This document shows, one piece after another, positions 44,095 to 60,914 of a DNA stretch of 64,000 nucleotides. The DNA is taken from assembly GCA_000004985.1 (NCBI GenBank), contig GG738895.1. The stretch is one strand, 5' to 3'. The first letter of the stretch is position 1. Each line of letters begins with the position of its first letter. Origin of the DNA: Naegleria gruberi (taxonomy: Eukaryota). The notes under the pieces are model-generated. The model was not told the origin of the DNA, searched no databases, and saw only the letters and a program-made list of their open reading frames with translations. The position numbers and the translations under genes are program-made.

Positions 44095-46374
44095 TTATTG
44101 ATAGGTTCTTAATAATTCTTCCCACATTGATAAGAGTGCATCAATTTTCATTGTTCCAACTAGAGTACCATCTCTCTTTCTGACACTCACTGTCTTTTCT
44201 TGCATTTCCTTTTCTCCCAAAACCAAGATAAAGTTATATTGAAGAACTTGGGCATCTCTAATCTTTTTCTTCATTGTCTTATCAGAAAGATCAACATCAA
44301 TGAAATAGTTGGAGAAAACTCCTCTCTCTTCAGCAGTCTTGAAAATTTGATCCTTAACCTCTTTACAGTAATCAACAAGGGAAGCATTTTCAGCTGAGAC
44401 TGGACAAATAAAACATTGACGAGGATTAAGCCAGAATGGCCATCTTCCTGATAAATGTTCAGTCAAGAGAGCAATAAATCTTTCAATACTTCCCAAAATA
44501 GCTCTGTGAATAATGACTGGTGTAATGAGTTGGTCATTTTGACTTTGATACTTGAGATTAAATCTACGAGGAAGTTGGAAATCTAATTGAATAGTAGCAC
44601 ATTGATGGAATCTTTGTAAGCTGTCTTCAATTTGAATATCAATCTTTGGACCGTAGAAAGCACCATCACCTTCGTTGAGTTTCCAATTGTATCCATCCAA
44701 GCATTCCTTAAGAGATTGTTCAGCTTTATCCCACATTTCAATATCACCAACAAACTTTTCTGGTCTTGTTGATAAATTGAATCTCAAATTAAATCCAAAT
44801 ATTTCACTATAAACAAATTTAACAAATTGTAAACAATTTTCAATTTCACTCTTAACTTGGTCATGAGTACAGAAAATGTGAGAATCATCTTGATGGAATC
44901 TTCTGACACGAGTGAGACCTGTCAAGGAACCACGTGGTTCATTTCTATGGAGTGGACTGAAATCAGCCAATCTTACAGGTAATTCTCTATATGATCTAAT
45001 CTTACTATCAAACATGAGACAGTGGGCTGGACAATTCATTGGTTTGATTCCAATAGTTTCTTCCTTGTGTTGAGTTCCTTCAATTACAGTGAACATATCG
45101 TCCTTGTAATGTTGCCAATGGCCAGACGTTTCCCATAATTCTTTTTGGAACATTTGTGGAGTAATAACTTCATCATAACCTCTCTTTCTATATTCTTTTC
45201 TGATAAATTCAACCAATTTGTTAAACAGTCTAGTACCATGAGGTAAGAAGAATGGTGTTCCAGGACTGTATTCATGGAAGAAGAATAAATCTTGCTTTTT
45301 AGCAATAAGTCTGTGATCCCTCTTGAGAGCTTCTTCAATAAGTGTTTGCCAATCCTCCAACTGTTTAGCTTTAGGGAAAGAAATACCATAAACACGTTGT
45401 AAAAGTGGAGATTTTTCATCACCCTTCCAATAGGCTCCACTCAATTTTGTAAGTTTTACAGCTTTGATCATTGAAGTATTTGGAATATGAGGACCTCTAC
45501 ATAAATCTACAAGATTACCACATTTATACATGGTAATTGGTTCACCAGATGGAATTTTCTCTATTATATCCAATTTAAATTGATTATATTTGAAAATTTC
45601 TCTTGCCAATTCCTTTGTAATGTGAATTTTTTGGAATGAATGTTTTTCTTTCACAACTTGTTGCATGAATTTTTCTAATTCTTCCAATTGTTCAGTTGTA
45701 ATTCTTTCATTATTTTCAAGGAAACCCTCATAAAAGAAACCACCATTTAAAACTTGAGAAGCTTCTTTTGAAACCAAAGGTGGACCATCACATAATTTAA
45801 GTGATGAACCAAACTTTTGTTCCAAAGCACAACCAAGAATGTGAGCTGTTGAATGCCAAAATACTTCCTTTCCTTCAACACTTTCAAATGTAAAGAATTC
45901 AATATTATTATTATTTGATTCTTGATTATTCAAAATTTCAGAAAATGTATCATTCATATCAGTGAGCTTTCCATTAATTTTACAAACTAAAAACTCGCTT
46001 ACTTCATTCTTATAAAAGACTTCATTAGCTAATTGAAGTGGTGTCTTTTTCAAGAATTCCGAGTCTACAACAATTGATAAAGGTTTACTCTTTTCTCCAA
46101 ATTTCAATACTAAATTTAAATTGCTAATATTAATATTATTAGGCTTGATATTTTCTTGTTGTTTTAATTCATTCCAATGTTTTGATCGTTCTTCAAAGGC
46201 TTGTTGTTGCTTGTTGGAGAGTGAAAAGTATCTTTGAGTGGAAATTGAATTGGTCATTTTCATCATCTTGATTGCATTACTAACAGAGGCTGTTGTTGTT
46301 GTTGTTGCAGCACTGCTAACAAGAGAATTGGTACAACTCTTCAATACTCTTCTTCTCATCACGGCGTTTAACAT
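44095..46374 (-). CDS. Threonyl-tRNA synthetase (class II) with an N-terminal presequence-like extension, possibly the mitochondrial or a dual-targeted form
   Basis: It has a TGS-like region, the editing-domain motif FWHSTAHILGCA, class II motifs (FFHEYSPGTPFFLPHGTRL, HRNEPRGSLTGLTRVRRFHQDDSHIF, GPKIDIQ) and a C-terminal anticodon-binding domain. It is a single exon. Confidence 0.95.
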   Translation of the reverse strand: MLNAVMRRRVLKSCTNSLVSSAATTTTTASVSNAIKMMKMTNSISTQRYFSLSNKQQQAFEERSKHWNELKQQENIKPNNINISNLNLVLKFGEKSKPLSIVVDSEFLKKTPLQLANEVFYKNEVSEFLVCKINGKLTDMNDTFSEILNNQESNNNNIEFFTFESVEGKEVFWHSTAHILGCALEQKFGSSLKLCDGPPLVSKEASQVLNGGFFYEGFLENNERITTEQLEELEKFMQQVVKEKHSFQKIHITKELAREIFKYNQFKLDIIEKIPSGEPITMYKCGNLVDLCRGPHIPNTSMIKAVKLTKLSGAYWKGDEKSPLLQRVYGISFPKAKQLEDWQTLIEEALKRDHRLIAKKQDLFFFHEYSPGTPFFLPHGTRLFNKLVEFIRKEYRKRGYDEVITPQMFQKELWETSGHWQHYKDDMFTVIEGTQHKEETIGIKPMNCPAHCLMFDSKIRSYRELPVRLADFSPLHRNEPRGSLTGLTRVRRFHQDDSHIFCTHDQVKSEIENCLQFVKFVYSEIFGFNLRFNLSTRPEKFVGDIEMWDKAEQSLKECLDGYNWKLNEGDGAFYGPKIDIQIEDSLQRFHQCATIQLDFQLPRRFNLKYQSQNDQLITPVIIHRAILGSIERFIALLTEHLSGRWPFWLNPRQCFICPVSAENASLVDYCKEVKDQIFKTAEERGVFSNYFIDVDLSDKTMKKKIRDAQVLQYNFILVLGEKEMQEKTVSVRKRDGTLVGTMKIDALLSMWEELLRTYQ

Positions 46375-47050: not shown

Positions 47051-48443
47051 TTAATTAAAGAATGGATACTTTTTTTTGTGGATGATATTATAAATATAAT
47101 CTCTATCTAATTCTTTATAGTCATCAATGTAGCTTTCTAAATTTTCCCTTGCTTGTTCAAATTCCCCATCTGCTAGACCTTCGAGGACATATTTTTGAAT
47201 ATAAGTATATTTCTCTAAATGGTATAAAGTTAATTATTTTGGATATTCAAACTTACTGAAATTGGTGTCAAACAATTTCAAATACTGTTCAAGATTATTC
47301 CTAACACCAGTGGAATTATTTGCTATATGAACAATATTATTGGAATTAAATAATTTACAAGCATTTCCAATATTTCTTTGAGAATTGAATACGTTTTGGT
47401 AAATTAACTTTCTATGATTCAAATAATTAGCAATACTATCCTTATTAATATTGTAAAAATCAGTTCCTCTCATTGATATACATGTTGAAATGGATTTTGC
47501 ATTATCAATTCCATCGATTGTCAATGAATATTGATTGGAAAATAACTCTTTACAATCCAAATTGTTTCTTATACTCATTAAACTATTAGAAATAATATTC
47601 ATTGATGGGTAGGGAACTAGTTTTGATGAAATTTGTGAAAAACTTTCATTTGAAAATAGACATGGTTCTAAAAATGTTGAAATCATTTGTGAAATTACTT
47701 GATTAATAGTATTATACTCAATATTTTCTATTTTCAATTCATATTTACAATAATCATATATCAAATCATTTCGGATTGAAGATATATTGGACAGATATTC
47801 TCTCATAGTCTCCATTGATAAAACCATATTATACAATTCAAAAGTTGTGGAACTAGCCATTTCACTTAAACTTGGAAACACACTAAATGATGACTAATTT
47901 AAAATACTCACACAATATGTGCTGCTATTCGAAACTTACTATTGTAACTCCTTTTAACCATGACTTGGATCTCAATTGTTCCAATATTCTACAAATCATT
48001 CCACTACCTGTTCCTCCTCCAATGGAATGAGTGAAAATAATTCCATCCAAATGATCACAATTTTCAACCATTTTACGAATTCTCTCTTCAATATAATTAA
48101 TATAATTATTTCCAAAAGAAAATTGAGATCTTAAAGAGGTAATTGAAGATTCATAATCATTAATTATATTTTCTTGTTTACAACAATATTTTAACTTATT
48201 TTCACAATGCGTTAATCGAATTTGTTGTGTAAAAGTGTTATGATCAATAATATTAGAATCGGAATCAATGAATAAACTTCGGGATGTGAATGTATTTTCC
48301 TTTCTAATACTTTCTTCAAATAATTGATAAGTATTAGATTTAAATTCTGTGTTACAAAATAAATCCCATATGGATTTTCCTATCTGACATCCACATTCTC
48401 CTAAGTGAATGAAAATTAATTCACCACTGTTGTTATTTGACAT
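47051..48443 (-). CDS. Highly divergent tubulin-superfamily protein (delta/epsilon/zeta-like), ~435 aa; three exons
   Basis: Exons are 47940-48443, 47257-47893 and 47051-47214, with introns of 46 and 42 nt. The N-terminus ELIFIHLGECGCQIGKSIWDL matches tubulin REI..IQ.GQCGNQIG..FW, the glycine loop HSIGGGTGSGM is present, and the C-terminal helix KYVLEGLADGEFEQARENLESYIDDYKEL matches tubulin HWY.GEGMEE.EF.EARE.L..L..DY. Confidence 0.7.
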
Positions 48444-48529: not shown

Positions 48530-50602
48530 TTAAGGTTTCCAATAACTTGACATCCATCGAGACCAATAGGACCAAATAGTTTCCTTCTTACCGTATAAAA
48601 CTTTCATGGAATTTTCATCAGAAACTGTAAATGGAATACCTAATAATTTTGCATATTTCAATTTCATTTCGTATCTTTTAACATTTAAGGAATCTTCTTC
48701 AAGGAGAAAGCAACAATCATCATAGATCATTTTTAACTGTTCCTGATCAGTTATGTTCAATTGGTTGGCTATCATTACTCTACGCTCTTTCAATTGAAAA
48801 TATAAACTAAGCATACTTTTTGAATACCTTTGATCAGTTTTTTCAAGTTCTTCTAAATTGTTCAACATTGAAGTTGCTTCTTTAAATTTACTCTCCAAAT
48901 CATCATGTTTTTTGTTGAAATGAAAAGAATTAAGTGCCTGAGCTTCCAAAGAGAGAATTTTTCTTGTTTTCTTGTCATTTAAAGTTTGTTTCGAAATATC
49001 CTTATCCACTCTAAGTTGTAAGGCTTCTGAAAAGAGTTTTTCTGAGAATTGAGGATTATCTTTCAATACAAATTGACCAAATTTCAATAGTGATTCAACA
49101 TTGTCTGGTCTATAACATGAATATTTTGAAAAGTAGGAAAACGCATTGTCCTTATCTCCCAAATGTTGATAAATGAGGCAGAGTTGATGATATACTTGAT
49201 CAATATTCCAAAATCCTAACCTCTCACATTCTTTGAAATCATTGATTGATTCATCAGTCATGCCTAATTTGAGATATATGCACCCTCTTCTATAATAGGC
49301 ACAAGAGTATTTAGGATCTAAATTAATGCACGTTGTTATTACTTTTTCTGCCTTTTGTAATAGATTTTTTCTCAGTTCCTCATAATTGTCCTCTTTAGAA
49401 TCAATTTTTCGACTTTGGTCAAAATAACATTTTGCCAATTTTTCATATGATAATTGGAAGTAAGGAAATATTTCAATAGATTTCTCAAAGAAAATGATTG
49501 CCTTTTTAAATTGCCTATTTTTCTGATAGTAACATCCTTGAATAACACACTTAATTAGAGATGAATCATCAAGTTGACTAATAGAGTCTAGAAATTCATT
49601 CTCTGTTTTGTTGGCATGAGGACTAGCTAATATGTCAACTTTAGTATCAGAAGATCGATCACTTAAACCTAAAACATATGCGAAGAATGAAACTGCTTCA
49701 CTCATTGTTGCTGCTGTAATTCTTTCATGCTCTTCAATCTTAATACATGATAGAATCAATAATTGTAACCCTGAAGATTCCAATCTTTGCTTAATTTCTT
49801 CTTTACCGTTTTGAAGTATGTGATTATCAATATCTTGTTGGTTTTTAAATTCTGATTTCTTGTTAAAACAAGTTTCAGTATCTTTGGTAATTAATCTGTA
49901 CAATGTTACCCCAAAACACCACACATCCCCGCTAGAACCAACCTCATATGCTTCCTTTCCATTTTTCATATGTAATGGTGGCCTATGTGCTGGTTTACCA
50001 ACACGCATACTACTCTCAATTGTTCGATAACTAAGGTCCTGGTCCATTTGAATGCTAAACTCAAAGTCACCCAATCTAACTTTAATGATACCAGTAGTTC
50101 TATTAAAAGACTCAATGAATATATTATCCTCTGAGATATCTCTGTGAATAATTTTACCTTCTGCTGAGTGAATAGAAACAAGTGCTCTTGATATTTGGAA
50201 AGCAATTAAAATACAAGTTTCTCTACTGAGATCTTCTGTTAAAAGTTTATCCAAACTACCTCCCTCATAAAATTTCATTAATGTGTAACAATAATAAACA
50301 CCTTTAAAGAATTCAAACATTTCACATGAATACTCTTTGGATTGAGAATTGTAAAAAGCACTCTTTTCTCTTTCAACAATTTCATTTTCCGAACCGTAAT
50401 CTTCTCCAGGTTCATTCTCATAATTGACAATTTTAACAACAGCCCTTATTTCTGGGGATTGTCCTTTTACCATTTTGCATTGTAACAAGTTGCATTTGTC
50501 TCTTTGTTCCATGAATGAATAATCCATCAACTTGATATCTCTAAGAGAGAGGTACTCTTCAAATTCAGCAAGACGCCATTTTGATCTTTGGTAGTTTGAC
50601 AT
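48530..50602 (-). CDS. Kinase-like (probable pseudokinase) domain fused to C-terminal TPR repeats
   Basis: The catalytic loop is IHRDISEDNIF rather than HRDLKPEN, the DFG triplet reads DFE, no glycine-rich loop is visible, the VAIK-like lysine is retained (AVVKIV), and the activation segment ends SSGDVWCFGVTLY. The C-terminal half is TPR-like (YYRRGCIYLKLGMTDESINDFKE...). Confidence 0.7.
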   Translation of the reverse strand: MSNYQRSKWRLAEFEEYLSLRDIKLMDYSFMEQRDKCNLLQCKMVKGQSPEIRAVVKIVNYENEPGEDYGSENEIVEREKSAFYNSQSKEYSCEMFEFFKGVYYCYTLMKFYEGGSLDKLLTEDLSRETCILIAFQISRALVSIHSAEGKIIHRDISEDNIFIESFNRTTGIIKVRLGDFEFSIQMDQDLSYRTIESSMRVGKPAHRPPLHMKNGKEAYEVGSSGDVWCFGVTLYRLITKDTETCFNKKSEFKNQQDIDNHILQNGKEEIKQRLESSGLQLLILSCIKIEEHERITAATMSEAVSFFAYVLGLSDRSSDTKVDILASPHANKTENEFLDSISQLDDSSLIKCVIQGCYYQKNRQFKKAIIFFEKSIEIFPYFQLSYEKLAKCYFDQSRKIDSKEDNYEELRKNLLQKAEKVITTCINLDPKYSCAYYRRGCIYLKLGMTDESINDFKECERLGFWNIDQVYHQLCLIYQHLGDKDNAFSYFSKYSCYRPDNVESLLKFGQFVLKDNPQFSEKLFSEALQLRVDKDISKQTLNDKKTRKILSLEAQALNSFHFNKKHDDLESKFKEATSMLNNLEELEKTDQRYSKSMLSLYFQLKERRVMIANQLNITDQEQLKMIYDDCCFLLEEDSLNVKRYEMKLKYAKLLGIPFTVSDENSMKVLYGKKETIWSYWSRWMSSYWKP

Positions 50603-50748
50603 TGTTTTTTTTTGTAAAACTTATTGAAGAAAATAACGTTTATTTTAGCAGCAACACACGCTTTCCTTTTCGCGAAACGTGACATCACGTTTGGTCTTTA
50701 TCCAGAATATTATTGCCTGTATTTTACTTGCTGTAAACTTCAACATAT

Positions 50749-53058
50749 TCAGTAGTCATCATCAAAAAAGTCAAATGTTTTCTCTTTTGTTGTGTTTTCT
50801 GTGAATAGGTCATCAGCAAAATCAATAGATAATAGGGGTTGAGACATTGGTTCGATAACAATTGGCTTTGGTTTTGGTTTTCTGGCACTTTCCTCTGCAT
50901 CTGTTCCATTTTCTATTCTTGTTTGCCATTCATCAATCTCAGTATCCAATTCTTGCAATACTTTGGCATATCTGTCTTCCAACTCTTTCAATCTTTGTTC
51001 TCTTTCTTGTCTCTTATTGGCATTCTTTTGAGATTCCTTCTCCAACTGGTACAATGTACAATAATATTAAATAATATTATATTATTAACCTACCTCTTGT
51101 TGGTAATGAGCTGACATTTCTTCATAGAATTTTTCAAGTTGTTCGTTCATTTCTTCTTGCAGTCTTTCATATTCCTTTTCAAAGTCAAACCCTAAATCAA
51201 TCTTTGCATCTTTTCCAACTAGCTTTTGGATCTTTTTCCAATTCAGTGAGCAATTAGTTCTATAGAAACAAAACTTACCATAATTTGCTTTTCACTGAGA
51301 ATGGAATTTTGTCTTCTTTCTTGATCTCTCAATAAATCTAATTGTTCTTGTAGCAAGGAAAGTGATGACTTTTTCTTTTCTAGCTCTTCTTTCTTCTCGT
51401 CTCTTTGGGTTTCATGTGACTTTAAATCCAACAAACTCTTACTCAAATCCAGTTCAACCTTTTCCAAGTTCTTCATCTCATCTTGCTCTCTTTGTTCCAA
51501 TTCTTGAAGCTTCTTTGTGAGATTACTCATTTCTTCATTCTTGAGCTCTAGTTGGTATCTTAGTTCTGATAATGCAAAAGTATTTTGCTCACTTTTTTGG
51601 TTGCTATTGGTGACAATCTTGAAAATCTCATTATTGACATTCTGCAATGAAATGCTCTTTTCTTCAATTTCTTGCTTTAAAGAGGTGGCTTGTTCCTTCA
51701 AGTCTTTGATGGTAGTATCTGATGCTGAAAATTCTTCCCTCTTAGCCTCAATACTTGATTCAACAGTGGTCAACTCCTCTTCGCAAGACTTGAATTTAGT
51801 TTCAATTTCACTCAAGTTGTTGTCAATTTCCTTTTTCTTTTTTTCAAGTTGCTCACATTTAAACTTGAGATCGTTCAAACACTTTTGCTTTAATTGCTTT
51901 TTCTGAGCAAGGTATGATATCTTTGAAGTGTCAATACCTTCGAATTGAAGTCCATTCTTTTTCATAATTGTTTCAAACTTGTCCTTAAACTTCATTTCAT
52001 CCCTTGAGGATCTATACTCTAACATGGATGTCTCTAAATCAGCCTTTGTTGATTGATATTATGTATATATGGATTAAACAATAACACTTACCATAATATC
52101 ATTCAATTTCTTGAATTCACCTTGATTCTTGATGAGTTCTTCCTCTTTATCTTTAATTTGAGTCTCAATTTGTTGGTTTTCTCTCATCAACTCCTCTTGT
52201 TGCTTTCTAATTGTTGCAATTTGCTTTGAAACTTGATTGGAAATCATTAAGATTTCATTAATTTCACTCTGCTTCTTTGTAATAATCTCCATGACCTCTT
52301 GCATCTTGACATTAACTCCATTGATTTGTTCTTGTTTCAACTTGAGTTCTGATTCAACTTCATTCTTTCTTTTCTCTCTTTCCTCTCTTTGTTGGTTGAC
52401 TATTATGATATAATTAAAATAATCAATAGGTTAGACTTACCTCTTGTCAAATGATCTTCTTGATTTCTATTCTCTTCTTCAATATTTTGTAAAGTGTCCA
52501 TGTAGATTTCATAACATCTTTGATCGTGAGAAATCTTCTCTCTAAGATTAGCAATAACTTCCTTTGCATGCTTGTTTCTTTCAGATAACTCATTAAGATC
52601 TGTTACTAGCCCTTCCATTTTCTTCTCCACTTGTTGATGTCTTTCCTTTAATCTTTCAAGTCTTCCTTCCTCTGATTGACTGATAGCCTCAAGTCTAATT
52701 TTCGTCTTGGATAGATCGGCAACAAGTTCCTCAACCATTGTTAAACTCTCCTCAGTTTTGTGAAGGATTTTAGTCTAAAGATGACGAGTGAATGTTATTG
52801 GTAATAATAATAAATGTGTGTTGGGTGTTCAGAAGAAAGGCTTTGTAGTATTCTTAAACTTACCTTTGATTCAATATTCTGCTTGTTTTGAGAACGAGCA
52901 CTCAATAACTTTTCAACAGAGTTCTTCAAGTTATCAAACTTTGATCTAGCCTTCAAAGCTTCCTTGGTAGAAAACTCTCTAGTTGACCCATTCAAAGCCT
53001 TGTTTTCCAATGAGGCTGCTTGAAATTTAGTCTTGATAGCAAAGCTTTGCTTTTGCAT
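50749..53058 (-). CDS. Coiled-coil protein (~678 aa) of unknown function; six exons
   Basis: Exons are 52864-53058, 52441-52774, 52092-52399, 51279-52043, 51094-51231 and 50749-51045, with introns of 89, 41, 48, 47 and 48 nt, all in phase. Heptad-rich sequence runs throughout, and the C-terminus is acidic (...FDFFDDDY). Confidence 0.65.
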
Positions 53059-53326
53059 CTTGGTTGTTTTTTTTTGAGTTTGTTTTTGTGTTGAGACAAA
53101 TCCCGATTTAGTCAATTATAACAATTTTCCCTCCAAAAAACTTAGCCTTTATTCCAATAGATTATTAAAATTGAATCAATGAAAAATCTCAAGTGAATTC
53201 ATTGTGCTCTTTATAAAGCAAATTTCAATGTAAAACTCTGTCATGTCTTTTCATCATTCAATACTAATAACTATTAAAATATAATAATAATAATAATCAT
53301 TACTATTAATATTACAATCAAAGAAT

Positions 53327-53600
53327 TTAAACACTCTCCGAAGAGTATGTACTTCTATTATTAATAATGTTATTAGAATTATTTGTTGTTGTTGATAGAG
53401 TAGGTGCCATTTCCATTGAATCAACATGTGCTAAATCTGAATTGTTGTTACTTCTTTTCATTCTTCTGAAAAATCCTCTTCTCCACAATAAATATAAACC
53501 GACAATCACCAATAGTGCTATGAAAGTAAATATACCATATCCAATTAAACTCTTATACTTGGTTACTTGAGCAGCAGAGTCTATTATTTGAACATTGGTT
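53327..53600 (-). CDS. Terminal exon of a putative single-pass membrane protein (extracellular stalk, TM helix, basic cytoplasmic tail); the 5' exons are not resolved
   Basis: The open frame reads ...SPASPARIQIPTNVQIIDSAAQVTKYKSLIGYGIFTFIALLVIVGLYLLWRRGFFRRMKRSNNNS...ESV* and is preceded by a candidate acceptor near 53603. The frame stays open for >100 codons upstream with no ATG. Confidence 0.3.
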
Positions 53601-54047
53601 GGTATTTGAATTCTAGCTGGTGATGCCGGTGACCTAATTTTAATATTATTATTATAAATATATTTTAATATTAAATATATTATATCATCAGATAAATGTT
53701 GAAAATTATAATTATGACAGGAAGAAACAATGTACTGTACATACCCTCCTCATCCCATGTTGTTGTTTGATTGTATTTTTTTTTTAAATGGCTTGTTTGA
53801 AGAGTGAAATGTGATGCATTGTAAATGGAATAATATTAAATATTGACATTATTGTAAAATATGTTGTATTTATTAAATATATTGATAAATACTAATTGTT
53901 ATTTTCACTTTGTGATGATTCTGATAATGAACTTTTCTTGTTCTTTGTAACACAATGTTTGAAATGGAAATCAATTTCATAATTGACCAAAATGTAATTT
54001 GAAATTTAATCAAATTCTATTTCTGAAAAACAATTATTTAAAAAAAA

Positions 54048-54815
54048 ATGGGAGTTTTAGGTAAAAGAGTTTATAGAAAATACAAACAAAAATACATTAA
54101 CAAGTATTTTAAATATTCCTATCAATGTGATTTTCCAAATAGAAAACAAATATTTCAAATACAATCACCTTATCTAACATTTAATGAACAATATTCACCA
54201 TCATCTAAATATCCACAACTATTGACACCTGTCACTAAAACAAGTATTTCAAATTTAAAGTTAACATGTATGAAGAAACCACTCATTCAAATACCTACAT
54301 TTAAAAGAATTATCAATAGATCAATGGAATTATCAGCTCCAGATATAATGCCATTAAAAGAAGAATATAATTATAATATTGTAAAGTTGAATATTAGCAC
54401 AATAGATGATCAACAGTGTGCACAAACAGAATTTAATGGATTTCGTTTAACGAGAGATAAATTAACATCACTAACTTGTAGAAAATGGCATTCAATAATA
54501 ACATTTAATAATACATTTAAAAGTATGGATGGATATCATGTTAGAATTTTCATGACATCATGTACAAGAATGAAATTATTACAAATTAAAAAGACATCAT
54601 ATGCTAACAAGTCACAAATTAAAAAGATTAGAACTATAATGTATCAAGTAATATTAAAATATTTAAGTAAAATGACAATATTAGAATTTGTTAATAGAAT
54701 GGCAATTAAATGTGAAATGAGCAGTGAAATTAGAATGAAATGTGAAAATATTTATCCATTAGAGGATGAAATTTTAATTACAAAGATTAAATTATTAGAA
54801 AAACCTCAACTTTAA
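54048..54815 (+). CDS. Highly divergent ribosomal protein eS1 (RPS3A)-like ORF of 255 aa, either a diverged paralogue or a decaying copy
   Basis: The C-terminal two-thirds aligns with eS1: FNGFRLTRDKLTSLTCRKW...DGYHVRIF...LQIKKTSYANKSQIKKIR...CENIYPLEDEILITKIKLLEKPQ versus human FHGMDLTRDKMCSMVKKW...DGYLLRLF...NQIRKTSYAQHQQVRQIR...[22 protein letters not shown]. The N-terminal third is not recognisable, and the region is extremely AT-rich. Confidence 0.6.
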   Translation: MGVLGKRVYRKYKQKYINKYFKYSYQCDFPNRKQIFQIQSPYLTFNEQYSPSSKYPQLLTPVTKTSISNLKLTCMKKPLIQIPTFKRIINRSMELSAPDIMPLKEEYNYNIVKLNISTIDDQQCAQTEFNGFRLTRDKLTSLTCRKWHSIITFNNTFKSMDGYHVRIFMTSCTRMKLLQIKKTSYANKSQIKKIRTIMYQVILKYLSKMTILEFVNRMAIKCEMSSEIRMKCENIYPLEDEILITKIKLLEKPQL

Positions 54816-54915
54816 CAATTTTTCTATTAATATTTATGTAAATATTAAATAAATAGATAAAAATGTAAAAATTAAAAAATCAATTAAATTAAAAAATTAA
54901 ATAAAAAAATAAAAT

Positions 54916-56067
54916 TTAATTTTCATTTTCTTTTTTATCCTTATTTCCTCCTAAACCAATATATGCAATTGCAACAATACCAACAGTTAATGCAAATAAA
55001 ATTGCAACAAATTTTTTAAATTTTTTAGAATTTTTAGTTTTTTCTTCTCTTCCAACAATGATATCAAGTTGCCAATTATGAAATTCTCTTGTTCTATCAA
55101 TAATTTCTTGATCTTTTGAACCTAAACGATGATACCATTCTTCTAAAGATAATCTATATTGTAACCAATGTAATAAATAATTATTTTCAAAATATTTTGT
55201 AATAACTTCATATTGAGCTCTTGCTATAATTGGTTTTGTTAATTCATTTCTTTGATATAAATCATTTGGTCCACTTTGTCCAATTGCTTTTAATTCTTGA
55301 TAATAAATTGAATTATTTAATTCATCATCATTTATTGTTAAAAATGTATTTTTATAAATTTCTTTAATATTTTCATCTGATAATTTTTCAATATTATTTA
55401 ATTGTAATGAAGGAGATGATTCTATTGTTGATTTTATATTATTAAATTCATTCAATCCAAAATTAATTAAAATTCTTTTAATAAAATTAAAAATATTTAA
55501 ATCTTGATATTTATATAATTCATTTTTAAATAAAACTACTTTTAAAGTAATTTGATTAGAAATTTCACCTTCATCTTGAAGTTTTTCATCAATTGAATAA
55601 ATTTGTGGATATTTTTGTTTTAATACTTTATAATAACTTTGATTTACTATTTGAGTAATTGAATTCCATTTTAAAAATAAATTTTCTTCAGGTTGATTTG
55701 GAAGATTTAAAACTTGATTAAATAATTTATGAGAATATACTTGTTCTTCTACTTGATTTAATATTTCTTGTAATTCATCTCTTGAAAATTTATTTTCATC
55801 ATTATTTAAATTATTATTTAAATTATTTTCATCATTATTTAAATTATTATTATTCAAATTATTATTAGAATGATATAATGATTGATGATAATTAAATGAT
55901 GATAATGTTATTAATTTGAATAATTGATGTTGATTATTCATACTACATGATGTTATTGTTGTTGGAAGAAGAAAATTATTCATTCCGATAGAATTATTCA
56001 TCTTTATAATAGAAGATGAACAATTTCTACTATTACTCTTTGATAATTGTATTACTGCTCTTCTCAT
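54916..56067 (-). CDS. Hypothetical protein with a presequence-like N-terminus, Asn/Leu-rich repeats (LNNNNLNNDEN x2) and a C-terminal transmembrane anchor
   Basis: It is a 383-aa ORF with a C-terminal hydrophobic segment FVAILFALTVGIVAIAYIGL and no recognised domain; the sequence is very AT-rich. Confidence 0.5.
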   Translation of the reverse strand: MRRAVIQLSKSNSRNCSSSIIKMNNSIGMNNFLLPTTITSCSMNNQHQLFKLITLSSFNYHQSLYHSNNNLNNNNLNNDENNLNNNLNNDENKFSRDELQEILNQVEEQVYSHKLFNQVLNLPNQPEENLFLKWNSITQIVNQSYYKVLKQKYPQIYSIDEKLQDEGEISNQITLKVVLFKNELYKYQDLNIFNFIKRILINFGLNEFNNIKSTIESSPSLQLNNIEKLSDENIKEIYKNTFLTINDDELNNSIYYQELKAIGQSGPNDLYQRNELTKPIIARAQYEVITKYFENNYLLHWLQYRLSLEEWYHRLGSKDQEIIDRTREFHNWQLDIIVGREEKTKNSKKFKKFVAILFALTVGIVAIAYIGLGGNKDKKENEN

Positions 56068-56161
56068 TTTTTTTAAATTGTTGTTAATTTTTATAATATC
56101 TTTATTTTAATATTTTATTACAATTAATTGATGAAAATAGTTGAACATTCTTAATAACAAT

Positions 56162-58390
56162 TTATTCATGTTTTTGTTTCTTTGTTTGTGGAGAGAGTGA
56201 TTCTTCATTTGTATTAGTTGTGTTTGTTTCTTCATCTTCATTATTAGAAGATGATGCATTAATAGATTGATGAATTGTCTTTCTTCTACCTGGTCCCCAA
56301 TTTTCTTCTGGATTTGGTAAATAAGTTGGAATACCTGTATGTTTGCTTGAAATTAAAGCTTTTTGATTAATTTCCAAACTAACTTGAGATTTTTGAGGTC
56401 TGGAAAGAATGACTTGACCTGGTGTTAATTTCTTATCACTATGAATAGGAGTACTATTAGTAGTAGTGGTAGCAGTAGTGGCAGTGGTAGTGGCAGTAGT
56501 GGTAGCAGTAGTGGAAGTGGTAGATTCTTGTTGTTGAACTGATTGTGGTTGAACTGATTGTTTAACAGGATGAGTCTTTATCCATTCCTTCATCATATCA
56601 TAAATGAAACTCATTGGAGCATCAGTTTTGATTGCATTTGGTTTAATGTGAGTACCTGAAACTCTATAACCAGCATTTAAAATAGCAGATCTAGCAACAT
56701 TCATTGGAATATTATTACATTTCAAAACACTTGCAACATGATCAAGATAATAATAGAGTGGAATATCAGATAATTCATTCTTTGCAGCAGTTAATAAACC
56801 AATAATTCTCTTATGAGTTGTAAATAAATGAGTATTCTTTTGAACGTGATCTAAACATTTAGAAATGAAATCAGCGTCATGAATTGGACCTAACCACATT
56901 GGACCAGATAATTTAAGTCTCCATCCACATTCAGGACAATTATCTTTTGGAATTGAATGATCATGAATATATTCCTTTCTAGATGCACTTGATCCACCTC
57001 CTAAATTTTCATAATAATATGATTCACATCCAGAACAAACAAAAACATTTCCAAATTGTTTGTAAATTGTTTTAACCTTTTCAGGTGAAGTATAAACTCT
57101 AACAAAAATTCTAACATAAAAATCAATTGAAAGTGAAAGTACAGGTACAACATATCTCTTATACTTTGATGCACATGTTTGAATTGATGAAATTAACATT
57201 CTCAATCCTTGTTCATGACATGATTTCAATTTTTGTGGATATGATCCATATTTAGCAAAACAAGTACCTGGTTGTTGTCCACATAAAACTGCCATATCTG
57301 TACATGTTACACATAATAATCCTCCATTTCCATCAACTGATTGAATTGCTCCATCAATAAATGGTGCTGCTGTACCATATGGATCTAAATCAACAACATC
57401 AAAAGCTTTATCTGTATTTGATGCCATATATACAATTGCATCAGCTTGATTAGCAATAATACTATTATCTGAAATATTATTAAATTCTACATTTCTCTTA
57501 ATCACTTCAACTGCTTCAGGTAATAAATCATTAGCAATAATTTGTTTAACATTTGGAATTTCATGCCAATAACGAATTGAACGTAAGCCTGTTGCAGACA
57601 AGGCTTCTAAAATTCTAATACCTTCATAAGTTGGTTTTTTATCATCACTTGTATCCATTTGATCATTTGATTGTTGTTTTGGTTGTGGTGGTTGTGTTTG
57701 TTGTTCGGATGCTTGTTGTTCACTAGTATTAGTGGCAGTAGTGGTAGTGGATTCTTGTTGTTGTTGCTTAGCTTGTTGTTTTTGTTGTCTCTTCTTTTGT
57801 GGTGGATTTAATTTTTCTTCCTTTCTAATATCATTGAACATTTTAATCACCAAAGTTGATGTATCTCTATTAAAGACTTGAACCTTATTATAAAAGGCTT
57901 CAGTATCTTTAGAATAAATAACTGTAGCTGTTCCTTCTTTAATACATTTAAATTCGGATGGTATTTCTCTTTCAGTATTATGATGACTACCTGATGGATA
58001 ATACTTTCCATCAATTAATTCAATAATTGGAGTTTGTACAGAAGAGGCAGCACCATTGGTTGCAGAAGAAGATTGAACGTCCATTTTTTTTAATTCGAAA
58101 TTTTCATGAATTATTTCTTCTTCCTCTTCTTCTATTGGTTCATTCTTATCAATAAAAGAACCAGCAACATTTGACAGTTGTGGTGCAATTCTAGAATGAT
58201 GATAGAATGATGAAGAAGGTGCATTCTTGTTATTGATGATTAATAGTGATGATGATGATTTTTTATCGGAAGATGACAATGTATTGAGTAGTACTGGAGA
58301 TTGTTTTATTGAATATTTCCCACTTCTCACTAATGATGTTGTATTATTAAAGATGATATGGTTTTTAGAGAGGATGAAAAGCCTTTTCAT
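56162..58390 (-). CDS. TRM1: tRNA (guanine26-N2)-dimethyltransferase TRM1 with Gln/Thr-rich low-complexity inserts
   Basis: It has the TRM1 SAM-MTase core (ILEALSATGLRSIRYW, VVDLDPYGTAAPFIDGAIQSVDGNGGLLCVTCTDMAVLCG, CFAKYGSYP) and a C-terminal zinc-finger region (CSGCESYYYENLG...CPECGWRLK). Confidence 0.85.
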   Translation of the reverse strand: MKRLFILSKNHIIFNNTTSLVRSGKYSIKQSPVLLNTLSSSDKKSSSSLLIINNKNAPSSSFYHHSRIAPQLSNVAGSFIDKNEPIEEEEEEIIHENFELKKMDVQSSSATNGAASSVQTPIIELIDGKYYPSGSHHNTEREIPSEFKCIKEGTATVIYSKDTEAFYNKVQVFNRDTSTLVIKMFNDIRKEEKLNPPQKKRQQKQQAKQQQQESTTTTATNTSEQQASEQQTQPPQPKQQSNDQMDTSDDKKPTYEGIRILEALSATGLRSIRYWHEIPNVKQIIANDLLPEAVEVIKRNVEFNNISDNSIIANQADAIVYMASNTDKAFDVVDLDPYGTAAPFIDGAIQSVDGNGGLLCVTCTDMAVLCGQQPGTCFAKYGSYPQKLKSCHEQGLRMLISSIQTCASKYKRYVVPVLSLSIDFYVRIFVRVYTSPEKVKTIYKQFGNVFVCSGCESYYYENLGGGSSASRKEYIHDHSIPKDNCPECGWRLKLSGPMWLGPIHDADFISKCLDHVQKNTHLFTTHKRIIGLLTAAKNELSDIPLYYYLDHVASVLKCNNIPMNVARSAILNAGYRVSGTHIKPNAIKTDAPMSFIYDMMKEWIKTHPVKQSVQPQSVQQQESTTSTTATTTATTTATTATTTTNSTPIHSDKKLTPGQVILSRPQKSQVSLEINQKALISSKHTGIPTYLPNPEENWGPGRRKTIHQSINASSSNNEDEETNTTNTNEESLSPQTKKQKHE

Positions 58391-58549
58391 TCTTTTGAAG
58401 CAAATTTAAAACAATTTTTTAATTTAATAATAATAACAAGTAAAAGCTTAACATGAGATTCCTATCATCAAGAGAGAAAACAAAGAAGTGGGGAGGCTTG
58501 ATGATCAAAAATTTCAAATTAATAATAATTTAATATTAGGAATTAAAAA
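58391..58549. promoter_or_regulatory. Putative bidirectional promoter region between the divergent TRM1 and KRTCAP2-like genes
   Basis: It is a 159-nt AT-rich spacer between opposite-strand start codons. Confidence 0.3.
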
Positions 58550-58954
58550 ATGGCTCCTTCATCTTCTTCATCTTCACTTGTATTGAGTGCCACTCTTGCT
58601 GGTATTACATTCTTTGGATTAAACTTTTTCAAGGATACATTATTGTCATCAGAGAAGGGAAAAGTTTTTACTGGATTTATGTGTAGTATAATTTACATGT
58701 TGCTTCTTACAGCCTATGGCAATATTAAATCAAATATTAAATGGTTCGATATGTTATTATGTTTATTCCCAGCAGAGATCATTGCATCAAGTTTCCATGG
58801 TGTTTGTGTTACCACTTGTTTCCTATTCTCGATGGTTATTTCCTTTGAATTACACAAAGTAGCCCAACATATCTACGGAGGTGCAGAACAAGGCACTACT
58901 ACACAAGCCAGTAGTACATCATCTACCCAAGCTAACGATAAGAAGAGAAGATAA
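58550..58954 (+). CDS. KRTCAP2: KRTCAP2/KCP2-family small membrane protein (oligosaccharyltransferase complex accessory subunit)
   Basis: It has three predicted TM helices. HGVCVTTCFLFSMVISF matches human KRTCAP2 HRVCVTTCFIFSMVGLY, and it ends in a basic KKRR tail. Confidence 0.6.
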   Translation: MAPSSSSSSLVLSATLAGITFFGLNFFKDTLLSSEKGKVFTGFMCSIIYMLLLTAYGNIKSNIKWFDMLLCLFPAEIIASSFHGVCVTTCFLFSMVISFELHKVAQHIYGGAEQGTTTQASSTSSTQANDKKRR

Positions 58955-59795
58955 AAACATTTTATATAAAGATATATTGTTAAGAGTAATATCTGTTTAA
59001 TAATCAAATTGACATTACTAAAATAGTTGTAATCCTTTTTATTAGGGTTGAGTTGTTTTACTGCATTTATAGATTAATCTTTTAAATGTAATAATTATCA
59101 TGTTATGTGAATCAAATTTGGTATTAATGTTAATTGATGGTTTTATTATTCATGAAATTTAACAAAATGGCTGTCTAATATAAATTGTTACTAAATTGAA
59201 TAATTAAGGTATTGCCAACCAGTTTTTTATGATTAAGGGTGATGAATAATCCAAAAATTCGCACATTTCTTTTAAAATGTACATGGTTCTATTTTCCCCA
59301 ACATAAGTCTTTAAACTAATTGTTCTGTCATTTTTAAATGGTGTGAAACTATTGCTGGAATTGGAAGGTTATACTTATGACAATGAACAAGTACATGATT
59401 TCAGATAATTTCAACAATAGAATTCGAAAACCAGATATTTATGGATGTTTCAAAACCGTTGTTGGTGGTGGATTGAATTCATCCCATATACTGGAAATAA
59501 TATTTAATTTAATAATTCAGATTTAACTATCCGTGTTATTAATTTACAATTAAAGTGTCCTAATAGTGTATTTGAAATTAGTTGTTAAAACTGTGACCTT
59601 AATAAATATTGTAACATGTTGGCTTACATTCATTTTATTTCAATCCATTTCCCTAAATATATAAAGTTCAACCACATCTAGGACATCATCCTTGTTGTCT
59701 CATTATTCTGATAATAACTAGATCCACTACCAACAATTAGCTTCCCCGCCAAATTTTAAAAAATTTCGGATTATTAAGCAAAAAAATATTCTAAT

Positions 59796-60914
59796 ATGAA
59801 ACAAGTGTACTCATATGCTCCTTCAACAGATTCAACAGAGAAGGAAAAGGCAGATCAAGAAGAAGAAAACAATGTCGAAATCGGATTGGTGGAGAGTTTC
59901 AACTCTTGTGATATTAGAATTGGATTTTTAAAAGATTTTCCAATTCAAGATGATTGTTATGAAGGATGGCTTGAAAAGATGAAACAACATCCAAATTATA
60001 AAAAGAGATTTACTGTTTCTGGTGTTTTAGAACATTCTGAACCATCATTAACCTATCAACAGGAAAGGACTGCAATTTTGAACTATATTGCTGATGAGAA
60101 TGGTTTCACAGGAATGGAAAGTTTTGGTGATGCAGATTATGAACGTATTTTTCAAAGAGAATTTGTTGAAATAATGAGATTGAATGATTTGGAATTTTCA
60201 CAATTATCTAAATTAGTCAGACCAGCATTTAAAAGAATTGGAATGTACTTGAGAGATTGTTTATTCAATTTTAAAAGTTCACATCAGTTAATTAATAGAG
60301 ATGATATATTCAGACATAGACTGAAATGGATTATACCATTATCAGAAAGTACTTCCATACGAAATTTATTACATTTTGATCCTTCTTATGAGTTTGATGA
60401 TGGTTTAAAAATTAATAGTGATATTTGTTTGGAGGATTTAACTAAAAAGCATAAATTATTCATCATGTTTTCACATTCAAATTTAAATGATGCATTCAAT
60501 TCAGAGGAATTTTATAAAATGATTTCCCTCCTACTATTAACTATAACCTATCACAAGTCAAATGATCCACATTATAAGTATTTTGAACCTTCTGGATTGA
60601 TTTGTTGTAGAACACATGCTTATTATTTGAACTGTTATTATTCTTCAATCAATATTAATATTTGTAAAATAGATTTACAGACAGTGAATGGCATGTTTGT
60701 ACTATTTTTTATAATTTCAAATTTTTTTGGACACAGAGATTGTGAAAGAGCCTATTGTAGGGAATTAAAAGAATTAAAAAATCCAACTATTAAGAAAAAT
60801 ATTAAGGGAATTGAAAAGAGTAAAAGAATGATTTTGAATAGAAAAATAGAGAACAAACCCTGTATTCCACTTCTAAACATTACAAATTTAATGATGAAAA
60901 ATAACTATAAATAA
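59796..60914 (+). CDS. Hypothetical protein of 372 aa with no recognised domain
   Basis: It is a long ORF with ordinary, non-low-complexity composition, Cys/His scattered in the C-terminal part (CCRTHAYYLNCYY...HRDCERAYC) and a flanking AT-rich intergenic region. Its product cannot be assigned from sequence. Confidence 0.5.
   Translation: MKQVYSYAPSTDSTEKEKADQEEENNVEIGLVESFNSCDIRIGFLKDFPIQDDCYEGWLEKMKQHPNYKKRFTVSGVLEHSEPSLTYQQERTAILNYIADENGFTGMESFGDADYERIFQREFVEIMRLNDLEFSQLSKLVRPAFKRIGMYLRDCLFNFKSSHQLINRDDIFRHRLKWIIPLSESTSIRNLLHFDPSYEFDDGLKINSDICLEDLTKKHKLFIMFSHSNLNDAFNSEEFYKMISLLLLTITYHKSNDPHYKYFEPSGLICCRTHAYYLNCYYSSININICKIDLQTVNGMFVLFFIISNFFGHRDCERAYCRELKELKNPTIKKNIKGIEKSKRMILNRKIENKPCIPLLNITNLMMKNNYK

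What the first reader, a model, noticed from the sequence alone, without database searches (positions are those of the whole stretch)
54048..54815. Highly divergent eS1/RPS3A-like ORF in an AT-rich island
Ribosomal protein eS1 is among the most conserved eukaryotic proteins. Here a full-length-sized ORF (255 aa) keeps the C-terminal eS1 signature blocks (LTRDK, KW, DGY..R.F, QI.KTSYA, IYPL, KPQ) but has an unrecognisable N-terminal third. Its codon usage is unlike a highly expressed r-protein gene. It is either a neofunctionalised paralogue (an extra-ribosomal role) or a retained, slowly decaying duplicate. Either way it should not be annotated as the canonical RPS3A.
Basis: partly seen in the sequence, partly recalled or inferred. 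Interest (0 to 1): 0.55.

Follow-up and report, generated by a model that had tools for sequence, protein, structure and literature searches.

The report
Diverged eS1 ribosomal-protein paralogue in Naegleria
This is a real, intact gene of the amoeba Naegleria gruberi that belongs to a small family, so far seen only in this species, of highly diverged copies of ribosomal protein eS1 (RPS3A); selection still maintains them, they are almost certainly not the standard ribosomal protein, and their job is unknown.

Summary
Window 54048-54815 (+) is an intact 255-aa ORF, identical to the N. gruberi 'predicted protein' NAEGRDRAFT_72207. It matches Pfam Ribosomal_S3Ae at E=8e-31 over aa 86-253 and lies in a ~3 kb AT-rich patch.

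It is extremely diverged for an eS1:
- 107 bits against the Pfam model, versus 194-280 bits for canonical eS1.
- About 33% identity to human RPS3A.
- Only 49 of 99 near-invariant eS1 positions are kept.

It is not a lone oddity. N. gruberi has at least four such loci, 49-68% identical to each other and monophyletic. All share the same replacements at canonical-invariant sites, a 20-38 aa N-terminal insertion, and loss of the eukaryotic C-terminal tail. No other organism showed a member in 1.84 billion representative proteins, JGI metagenomes or IMG/VR.

The family is basic (pI 9.8), folds as eS1, and shows dN/dS of 0.21-0.32 in the core. It is therefore a maintained, probably neofunctionalised RNA-binding paralogue, not a decaying pseudogene.

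The N-terminus is diverged but still alignable, not 'unrecognisable'.

I could not retrieve the canonical N. gruberi RPS3A with these tools, so that refutation test stays open. Interest is moderate.

The parts
54048..54815 (+). Complete intron-less coding sequence (255 codons plus TAA) of the eS1-like paralogue NAEGRDRAFT_72207.
   Evidence: ORF list. 100% identical to XP_002672781. Pfam Ribosomal_S3Ae E=7.9e-31.
54048..54302 (+). N-terminal basic tail, aa 1-85. It is diverged but alignable to the eS1 N-terminal extension and carries a lineage-specific insertion. It is predicted to be disordered.
   Evidence: Not covered by the Pfam model. Aligned remnants MxxGK, F21, K33, F36, P41, F45, T60. 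Columns invariant among the paralogues: K33, F36, S40, P41, Y42, P56, T60, P61, T63, K77, P83, T84. pLDDT below 50 for residues 1-80. dN/dS 0.46-0.54.
54303..54812 (+). eS1 (S3Ae) globular core, aa 86-255. It ends at KPQL, without the eukaryotic C-terminal tail.
   Evidence: Pfam aa 86-253. AlphaFold2 pLDDT mostly above 90 for residues 150-255. Every Foldseek top PDB hit is eS1, probability 1.0, TM 0.40-0.48. dN/dS 0.21-0.32. The tail PKFD..KLMELHG... is absent.
54029..54047 (+). A-rich translation-start context (aacaattatttaaaaaaaa-ATG), generic for genes of this genome.
   Evidence: Similar A-runs precede most long ORFs in the window and the paralogue on L001.
53100..56250 (.). AT-rich patch (GC 0.15-0.29) that holds the eS1-like gene and the convergently oriented 383-aa ORF at 54916-56067 (-).
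   Evidence: Composition profiles. Per-ORF GC and GC3.

Best explanation
The ORF is a functional, selectively maintained member of a family of highly diverged paralogues of small-subunit ribosomal protein eS1 (RPS3A). The family has at least four loci and was found only in Naegleria gruberi.

Shown: one ancestral duplicate went through a burst of change. About half of the universally conserved eS1 residues were replaced, including 12 of 25 conserved basic positions. The eukaryotic C-terminal tail was lost and a 20-38 aa insertion appeared in the N-terminal tail. This copy then multiplied to dispersed loci, and each copy has since evolved under purifying selection.

Shown: the proteins keep the eS1 alpha/beta fold, a basic unstructured N-terminal tail with conserved short motifs, and a pI near 9.8.

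Inferred: the most likely mechanism is binding of structured RNA through a remodelled eS1 surface. Either the protein acts on or near the 40S platform as a non-constitutive substitute, competitor or placeholder for eS1, or it acts on another RNA. I put roughly equal weight on these two targets. It is not the constitutive eS1 of the ribosome.

Shown: the window copy additionally sits in a locally AT-rich patch, and mutation bias there has shifted both its codons and its amino-acid composition.
For: Identity and homology.

Family:
- Four 90%-identity clusters and five gene models in N. gruberi, 49-68% identical to each other.
- Monophyletic in 100 of 100 neighbour-joining bootstraps, with a stem of 0.69 substitutions per site.
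- All paralogues carry identical replacements at canonical-invariant columns: KAP to SP, SLADL to SAPDI, FRK to YN, HGM to NGF, LIEA to IT.N, KTTDGY to KS.DGY, IRKKM to IRT.M, IRKVK to ITKIK.

Divergence: Pfam scores are 105-113 bits for the paralogues against 194-280 bits for canonical and even aberrant eS1. 49 of 99 near-invariant columns are kept and 13 of 25 conserved basic columns remain basic. The C-terminal tail is absent and the N-terminal insertion present.

Selection:
- dN/dS is 0.21-0.32 in the core and 0.46-0.54 in the N-terminal part, with dS 1.06-1.69 where it could be estimated, so the ratios are if anything overestimates.
- Near-identical copies of two paralogues occur in an environmental metagenome. 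Their only 2-3 differences lie in the N-terminal tail.
- The window copy has 19 unique changes at 107 columns where the other three paralogues agree, mostly conservative. One paralogue has 30 of 118.

Fold and charge.

Restriction to N. gruberi: only the N. gruberi family scores at or below 1e-30 among 1.84 billion representatives (411 and 366 bits, next best 113 bits). JGI metagenomes gave only canonical eS1, at most 41% identical.

Gene-like start context.

AT shift specific to this copy: GC 0.238 against 0.34 for two paralogues.
Against: - There is no expression, localisation or ribosome-association data of any kind, and no paper mentions these genes.
- The canonical N. gruberi eS1 was not retrieved. 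'Not the constitutive eS1' therefore rests on the degree of divergence, the multi-copy divergent family and general knowledge, not on a direct comparison.
- dS between paralogues is near saturation, and no branch-specific test could be made for the window copy. Recent relaxation of constraint on this particular AT-shifted copy is not excluded.
- RNA binding is inferred from fold and charge only.
- Absence from other Naegleria species rests on protein databases. Unannotated genes would be missed.
Confidence: 0.75

Rival explanations
1. Specialised-ribosome subunit. The paralogues still occupy the eS1 site on the 40S platform, at the mRNA exit and eIF3 docking region. They replace canonical eS1 in a subset of ribosomes, for example in a stage-specific way (amoeba, flagellate, cyst), and so change translation initiation. 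This is a sharper sub-case of the best explanation.
For: The eS1 fold is retained. The N-terminal tail motifs that in eS1 are ordered only on the ribosome are kept as remnants: MxxGK, K..F..(A/S)P. The tail is under constraint among the paralogues. pI matches that of canonical eS1.
Against: Half of the universally conserved residues and 12 of 25 conserved basic positions are replaced. The C-terminal tail is lost and there is a 20-38 aa insertion in the tail. The copies are 49-68% identical to each other, unlike known exchangeable ribosomal-protein paralogues, which are usually near-identical. There is no ribosome-association data.
Confidence: 0.2
2. Decaying duplicate. The window copy, or the whole family, is non-functional DNA slowly losing its eS1 signal.
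For: Sequence divergence is extreme. The window copy lies in an AT-rich patch with very low GC3 and AT-shifted amino-acid usage. One family member, P0004 (220 aa), has an aberrant, truncated C-terminus compared with its near-identical twin P0155.
Against: The ORF runs 255 codons in 24%-GC DNA, where roughly 9% of random codons would be stops (my estimate from base composition). dN/dS is 0.21-0.32 in the core. Shared derived residues are conserved in all copies. The window copy's unique changes are mostly conservative, and it retains W147 of the canonical KKW motif, which the other copies lost. It has a normal start context. Two paralogues are intact in a second, environmental strain.
Confidence: 0.06
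3. These proteins are themselves the working eS1 of N. gruberi, and no conventional RPS3A gene exists in the genome.
For: Two large searches listed no N. gruberi canonical eS1 among their best 120 hits. No paper naming one was found.
Against: Those searches listed only 120 of 7559 and 120 of 4513 hits, so absence from the lists carries no information. Canonical and aberrant eS1 proteins sampled here, from opisthokonts and green algae and from several unidentified transcriptome and metagenome sources, score 194-280 bits against Pfam, compared with 105-113 here. A single essential, stoichiometric ribosomal protein is not expected to exist as four copies only 49-68% identical to each other. By general knowledge, not tested here, N. 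gruberi is a free-living, slowly evolving organism whose ribosomal proteins are otherwise conventional.
Confidence: 0.03
4. Foreign origin. The AT-rich patch with its two genes is an insertion from a giant virus or a mobile element.
For: Local GC is 0.15-0.29 against about 0.33 in the flanks. The neighbouring ORF has GC3 0.042 and no known domains.
Against: Neither gene has a relative in IMG/VR or in PHROGs. No terminal repeats or duplications bound the patch. The paralogues at other loci have normal GC (0.34) and unrelated neighbours. The family groups as a diverged branch of eukaryotic eS1.
Confidence: 0.02

Closest known systems
Canonical eukaryotic eS1 / RPS3A (Pfam PF01015 Ribosomal_S3Ae), for example human RPS3A, yeast Rps1A/B, S. 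pombe eS1B
   Same: Homologous over the whole length. The alpha/beta core fold is the same. The N-terminal tail is basic and disordered, starts with MxxGK and carries the K..F..(A/S)P motif. pI is about 9.8. Size is similar, 255 aa against about 255-265 aa.
   Different: Only 30-33% identical, whereas the best-matching canonical eS1 proteins are 67-76% identical to a consensus eS1 sequence. The Pfam score is 107 bits against 240-280. 50 of 99 near-invariant positions are changed. There is a 20-38 aa insertion in the tail, and the C-terminal PKFD..KLMELHG.. extension is missing. The family is multi-copy and internally divergent.
Specialised ribosomal-protein paralogues (for example mammalian RPL3L, RPL22L1, RPS27L, RPL39L; Drosophila germline RpS/RpL paralogues). 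General knowledge, not tested here.
   Same: A duplicate of a core ribosomal protein that is retained under selection alongside a presumed canonical copy, raising the possibility of ribosome heterogeneity.
   Different: Known exchangeable paralogues are typically 70-99% identical to the canonical protein and keep all rRNA-contact regions. This family is about 30% identical, with a remodelled basic surface and changed termini.
Ribosomal-like assembly factors that mimic a ribosomal protein (Mrt4 and uL10, Rlp24 and eL24, Rlp7 and uL30, Imp3 and uS4). General knowledge, not tested here.
   Same: Strongly diverged paralogues of a ribosomal protein that keep the fold but have altered extensions. 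This is a precedent for binding the ribosomal protein's rRNA site without being the ribosomal protein.
   Different: Those factors are ancient and conserved across eukaryotes. The eS1-like family was found only in N. gruberi-like amoebae. No eS1 placeholder factor is known.
Archaeal S3Ae
   Same: Lacks the long eukaryotic C-terminal tail and belongs to the same Pfam family.
   Different: All of the 60 listed sequence matches and all of the 50 listed fold matches are eukaryotic eS1. The N-terminal MxxGK motif and the core motifs are of the eukaryotic type. The short C-terminus is therefore a secondary loss, not archaeal ancestry.

Membership tests
eS1 / Ribosomal_S3Ae superfamily (PF01015) | Significant match to the family profile above the curated threshold | tested here: met
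   107.5 bits against a cut-off of 29.3, E=7.9e-31. The paralogues score 105-113 bits.
eS1 / Ribosomal_S3Ae superfamily (PF01015) | eS1 alpha/beta fold of the globular domain | tested here: met
   In the AlphaFold2 model, residues 81-255 are folded and residues 150-255 have pLDDT mostly above 90. All 50 top Foldseek PDB hits are eS1 chains, probability 1.0, TM 0.40-0.48. The rmsd of about 15 A shows that the global superposition is loose.
Canonical (constitutive) eukaryotic eS1 / RPS3A orthologue | Full-length profile match, including the N-terminal profile positions 1-37 | tested here: not met
   Only profile positions 38-191 align. Canonical proteins align from position 2-3. Remnants of the N-terminal motifs are visible only in a multiple alignment.
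Canonical (constitutive) eukaryotic eS1 / RPS3A orthologue | High conservation: near-invariant residues kept and a profile score typical of the family | tested here: not met
   49 of 99 columns that are at least 85% invariant in 227 canonical sequences are kept. The score is 107 bits against 194-280 bits.
Canonical (constitutive) eukaryotic eS1 / RPS3A orthologue | Eukaryotic C-terminal extension (PKFD..KL.ELHG..., about 35-45 aa) | tested here: not met
   The protein ends at ...EKPQL. All four paralogues stop within 0-4 residues of this point.
Canonical (constitutive) eukaryotic eS1 / RPS3A orthologue | Being the genome's eS1 gene, with no other and more conventional copy present | tested here: inconclusive
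   The window holds no second copy. Database searches with a consensus eS1 and with a paralogue-weighted profile listed only the best 120 of 7559 and 4513 hits, none from Naegleria. The N. gruberi genome itself is not searchable with these tools.
Canonical (constitutive) eukaryotic eS1 / RPS3A orthologue | Stoichiometric incorporation into the 40S subunit | not testable with these tools
   Needs ribosome proteomics or a structure.
Pseudogene / decaying duplicate | Disrupted reading frame or loss of the start context | tested here: not met
   The 255-codon ORF is intact and has the normal A-run before the ATG.
Pseudogene / decaying duplicate | Neutral evolution (dN/dS about 1) | tested here: not met
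   Pairwise Nei-Gojobori dN/dS is 0.21-0.32 in the core and 0.28-0.38 overall, with dS above 1. This is an average over the whole divergence between paralogues, not a test of the terminal branch.
Ribosomal-like assembly-factor placeholders (Mrt4, Rlp24, Rlp7, Imp3 type) | Diverged paralogue of a ribosomal protein with the same fold and altered extensions | tested here: met
Ribosomal-like assembly-factor placeholders (Mrt4, Rlp24, Rlp7, Imp3 type) | Broad conservation across eukaryotes | tested here: not met
   Only N. gruberi and a near-identical environmental strain carry the family.
Ribosomal-like assembly-factor placeholders (Mrt4, Rlp24, Rlp7, Imp3 type) | Association with pre-ribosomes or nucleolar localisation | not testable with these tools
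   Needs an experiment.

The most novel reading that the evidence does not exclude
Naegleria gruberi has evolved a private family of eS1-derived proteins. They exchange with eS1 at the mRNA-exit and eIF3-docking face of the 40S subunit, or act as placeholders for eS1 during assembly. This would give compositionally distinct ribosomes in different life stages (amoeba, flagellate, cyst). It would be a natural case of ribosome specialisation through a radically remodelled core ribosomal protein rather than a near-identical paralogue.
Probability: 0.15. Interest if true: 0.65.

Novelty: new variant of a known kind. Interest (0 to 1): 0.4.

Why it matters
eS1 sits at the mRNA exit channel of the 40S subunit, where initiation factor eIF3 and some viral IRESs dock, and it is almost invariant across eukaryotes. 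This family keeps the fold but rewrites half of the invariant residues, and it has stayed under selection in several copies. That makes it a natural experiment in how far a core ribosomal protein can be repurposed.

If the proteins are ribosome-associated, they would be an unusually clear handle on ribosome heterogeneity in a tractable free-living protist that differentiates within about an hour. If they act outside the ribosome, they add a case of ribosomal-protein neofunctionalisation.

In practical terms, annotation pipelines should not transfer the name 'RPS3A' to these genes on the strength of the Pfam hit. Phylogenomic pipelines should also keep them out of ribosomal-protein matrices.

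Tried and rejected
1. Finding the canonical N. gruberi RPS3A.
- tblastn of human RPS3A against the window found only this ORF.
- A consensus-eS1 database search gave 7559 hits, of which only 120 were listed, none from Naegleria.
- A paralogue-weighted profile with one canonical block, designed and simulated offline, again listed no Naegleria canonical.
- Exact-sequence contig look-ups of the N. gruberi proteins failed, because the genome is not in that index.
- The literature search terms and the supplement look-ups in two Naegleria genome papers returned nothing useful.
- Result: not achieved.

2. P0278 stood out at 172 bits. It is a canonical eS1 with an internal tandem duplication of the block I had added to the profile, so it is an artefact.

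3. No canonical eS1 is noticeably closer to the paralogues than the others. All are 26-37% identical, so the parent lineage cannot be read from similarity.

4. Viral or mobile origin of the AT-rich patch. There are no IMG/VR relatives of either gene, no PHROG hits and no bounding repeats. Rejected.

5. An inverted repeat links the two gene starts (I4; pattern test). It is only the generic A-run start context shared by many genes in the window. Rejected as a regulatory element.

6. Conserved gene neighbourhood. The neighbours of the paralogues on L001 and L002 are unrelated to those in the window. Rejected.

7. RNA genes in the region: no Rfam hits in 50000-60000 and no tRNAs in the window.

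8. A first neighbour-joining bootstrap run timed out. It was redone with a faster distance routine.

Full report
**What is there.** Window 54048-54815 (+) is an uninterrupted ATG-to-TAA ORF of 255 codons. The protein is 100% identical to the Naegleria gruberi 'predicted protein' XP_002672781 / NAEGRDRAFT_72207 / D2VT81, so the window comes from N. gruberi. Pfam gives one significant family, Ribosomal_S3Ae (PF01015), at E=7.9e-31 and 107.5 bits. The match aligns aa 86-253 to profile positions 38-191 of 191. All listed PDB sequence matches are eS1/RPS3A chains, the best being S. pombe eS1B at 97 bits. Identity to human RPS3A is 33% over 166 residues.

**The AT-rich island.** GC falls to 0.15-0.29 between about 53100 and 56250, against 0.30-0.37 on both sides. 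The ORF has GC 0.238, GC3 0.145 and GC1 0.266. GC3 is the fourth lowest and GC1 the second lowest of 27 long ORFs in the window. The convergent neighbour at 54916-56067 (-) is more extreme still, with GC 0.194 and GC3 0.042.

Two other family members, recovered with their DNA from an environmental metagenome (L001, L002), have ordinary composition: GC 0.34 and GC3 0.29. AT-richness is therefore a property of this locus, not of the family. The window copy's private amino-acid changes run towards AT-rich codons, for example P to N, G to E, A to T, V to I, L to F/I/M and E to K/N. This is what local mutation bias would produce.

**How diverged it is.**
- Canonical eS1 proteins score 240-280 bits on the Pfam model, and two aberrant representatives score 194-195. 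The N. gruberi proteins score 105-113.
- A consensus eS1 finds 7559 database proteins at E of 1e-20 or better. The best are 67-76% identical to the consensus. The N. gruberi proteins are 26-37% identical to every canonical sequence I hold, and none is noticeably closer than the rest.
- Of 99 alignment columns that are at least 85% invariant in 227 canonical sequences, the window protein keeps 49. Of 25 conserved basic columns, it keeps 13 as K or R.
- The protein ends at ...EKPQL. It lacks the PKFD..KLMELHG... tail of about 35-45 residues that every canonical sequence in alignment A3 carries.
- The N-terminal 85 residues are missed by the Pfam model but are not unrecognisable. The multiple alignment shows MxxGK, F21, K33, F36, P41, F45 and T60 in register with canonical MAVGKNK...DPF.RKDWYD.KAPS.F...T, interrupted by a 20-38 residue insertion.

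**It is one of a family.**
- The first database search returned four N. gruberi clusters. Cluster look-up shows five gene models: NAEGRDRAFT_72207, 64820, 64949, and the pair 76025 (256 aa) and 76343 (220 aa, with an aberrant C-terminus). They lie on different scaffolds.
- Pairwise identities are 49-68%.
- The four full-length proteins are monophyletic in 100 of 100 neighbour-joining bootstraps against 36 diverse canonical eS1 sequences. The stem is 0.69 substitutions per site and the root-to-tip lengths are 0.26-0.39.
- All copies carry the same replacements at canonical-invariant positions: A to S in KAP, L to A in SLADL, R to N in FRK, M to F in HGM, E to T in LIEA, T to S in KTTDGY, K to I/V in IRKKM and R to T in IRKVK. 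They also share the insertion and the C-terminal truncation.
- This is the signature of one ancestral copy that changed radically and then multiplied while keeping its new sequence. It is not the signature of several duplicates decaying independently.

**Distribution.**
- An exhaustive HMM search of 1.84 billion representative proteins with the family profile found only the N. gruberi proteins at E of 1e-30 or better (411 and 366 bits). The next best, at 113 bits, begins the mass of canonical eS1.
- A pattern-plus-tblastn scan of JGI metagenome contigs found 36 loci, all canonical eS1 at most 41% identical to the query.
- IMG/VR holds none.
- The only relatives outside the reference genome are two contigs from one ENA metagenome, ERZ929261. 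They encode proteins that differ from NAEGRDRAFT_64820 and 64949 by 2-3 residues, all in the N-terminal tail. This is presumably an N. gruberi-like strain.
- No N. fowleri or N. lovaniensis member appeared. This rests on annotated proteins only.

**Is it under selection?**
- Nei-Gojobori estimates were made between the window gene and the two paralogues for which I have DNA, and between those two. In the eS1 core, dN is 0.25-0.34 and dS 1.06-1.28, giving dN/dS of 0.21-0.32. In the N-terminal part the two computable comparisons give 0.46-0.54.
- dS is close to saturation, so these ratios are if anything too high.
- The window copy differs at 19 of 107 columns where the other three paralogues agree. 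One paralogue differs at 30 of 118. About half of the window copy's changes are conservative. It alone keeps W147 of the canonical KKW motif.
- The gene has the A-run start context seen at most genes in the window.
- From base composition I estimate that about 9% of random codons would be stops at 24% GC. An open 255-codon frame that has been through extensive AT-ward substitution therefore argues for maintenance.
- I could not test the terminal branch alone.

**Structure and chemistry.** AlphaFold2 was run with a 38-sequence alignment. Residues 81-255 come out folded, with pLDDT mostly above 90 for residues 150-255, and residues 1-80 come out disordered. This is what is expected of a ribosomal-protein tail off the ribosome. 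All 50 top Foldseek hits in the PDB are eS1 chains, with probability 1.0 and TM 0.40-0.48. The rmsd of about 15 A shows that the global superposition is loose. All four paralogues have pI 9.75-9.94, the same as human, Fonticula, Chlamydomonas and Rhizophagus eS1. Half of the conserved basic positions have nevertheless moved, so the basic surface has been remodelled rather than lost.

**Interpretation.**
- Shown: this is a real gene and a member of a lineage-restricted, monophyletic, selectively maintained family of eS1-derived proteins with a distinctive architecture.
- Inferred: because the fold, the basic tail with conserved short motifs and the charge are all retained, the proteins most likely still bind structured RNA.
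- Inferred: because half of the invariant residues, half of the conserved basic positions and the C-terminal tail have changed in concert, they are unlikely to be the constitutive eS1.
- Open: the target could be the eS1 site on 18S rRNA (as an alternative subunit, competitor or assembly placeholder, by analogy with Mrt4, Rlp24 and Imp3) or a different RNA. I put roughly equal weight on ribosome-associated and extra-ribosomal roles.

The decaying-duplicate reading is disfavoured for the reasons given above. The 'this is the only eS1' reading is very unlikely but was not formally excluded. A foreign or viral origin of the AT patch found no support.

**The test I could not complete.** The window has none. 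The two remaining large protein searches list only their best 120 hits and included no Naegleria canonical. The second search was built to rank by similarity to the paralogues. Its result shows only that no listed canonical eS1 stands out as close to the family. The single outlier, P0278, is a tandem-duplication artefact. The literature and supplement searches found nothing.

**Novelty and score.** The gene models are public, as 'predicted protein' entries with a precomputed PF01015 hit. I found no paper that mentions them. Retained ribosomal-protein paralogues and ribosomal-like assembly factors are known kinds. An eS1 derivative this diverged, multi-copy and confined to one amoeba lineage is a new variant of that kind. 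Interest is moderate at 0.4. It is a clean and testable oddity in a very conserved protein, but there is no functional evidence and it bears on no long-standing open question.

Noticed in passing
window 47234-48443 (-): Two adjacent ORFs (47925-48443, 172 aa; 47234-47881, 215 aa) lie in another AT-rich patch (GC 0.25-0.27). The first is a tubulin GTPase domain scoring only 96 bits on Pfam and 66 bits against alpha-tubulin in the PDB. The second has no Pfam hit. This is a second extremely diverged paralogue of a very conserved protein, about 6 kb from the eS1-like gene. It may be split by an intron or a frameshift.
   Followed up: partly
window 54916-56067 (-): The convergent neighbour is a 383-aa ORF with GC 0.194 and GC3 0.042, the most AT-biased ORF in the window. 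It has Asn-rich repeats, a basic N-terminus and a C-terminal hydrophobic helix that looks like a tail anchor. It has no Pfam, PHROG, significant PDB or IMG/VR relatives.
   Followed up: partly
N. gruberi proteins P0004 (NAEGRDRAFT_76343, 220 aa) and P0155 (NAEGRDRAFT_76025, 256 aa): These two family members are over 90% identical and lie on different small scaffolds (18 kb and 99 kb). The shorter one has an aberrant C-terminus after residue ~208. They could be allelic haplotigs, a recent duplicate with one disrupted copy, or a gene-model error.
   Followed up: no
L001 and L002 (ENA metagenome ERZ929261, run ERR1078381, project PRJEB11402): An environmental metagenome holds contigs from an N. 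gruberi-like amoeba (GC 0.33). They carry copies of two paralogues that are over 99% identical to the reference. I could not identify the sample's origin.
   Followed up: partly
window, starts of most long ORFs (for example 20143, 21754, 29278-35760(-), 36676-37962(-), 44095-46374(-)): A run of 5-9 A residues directly before the ATG is a general start context in this genome. It produces spurious inverted repeats between divergently or convergently oriented genes.
   Followed up: yes
window 51243-52738 (-): Several consecutive coiled-coil ORFs on the minus strand have weak, sub-threshold IFT57-like hits (about 20 bits). They are probably exons of one long coiled-coil gene.
   Followed up: no
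window 56162-58390 (-), 44095-46374 (-), 41910-44081 (+), 36676-37962 (-), 22572-24359 (-): The neighbouring genes are ordinary housekeeping genes: TRM1 tRNA methyltransferase (with Thr/Ser-rich repeats), threonyl-tRNA synthetase, Sas10/Utp3, an actin-related protein (195 bits, so not actin itself) and MKT1. The window holds no ribosomal-protein gene.
   Followed up: yes
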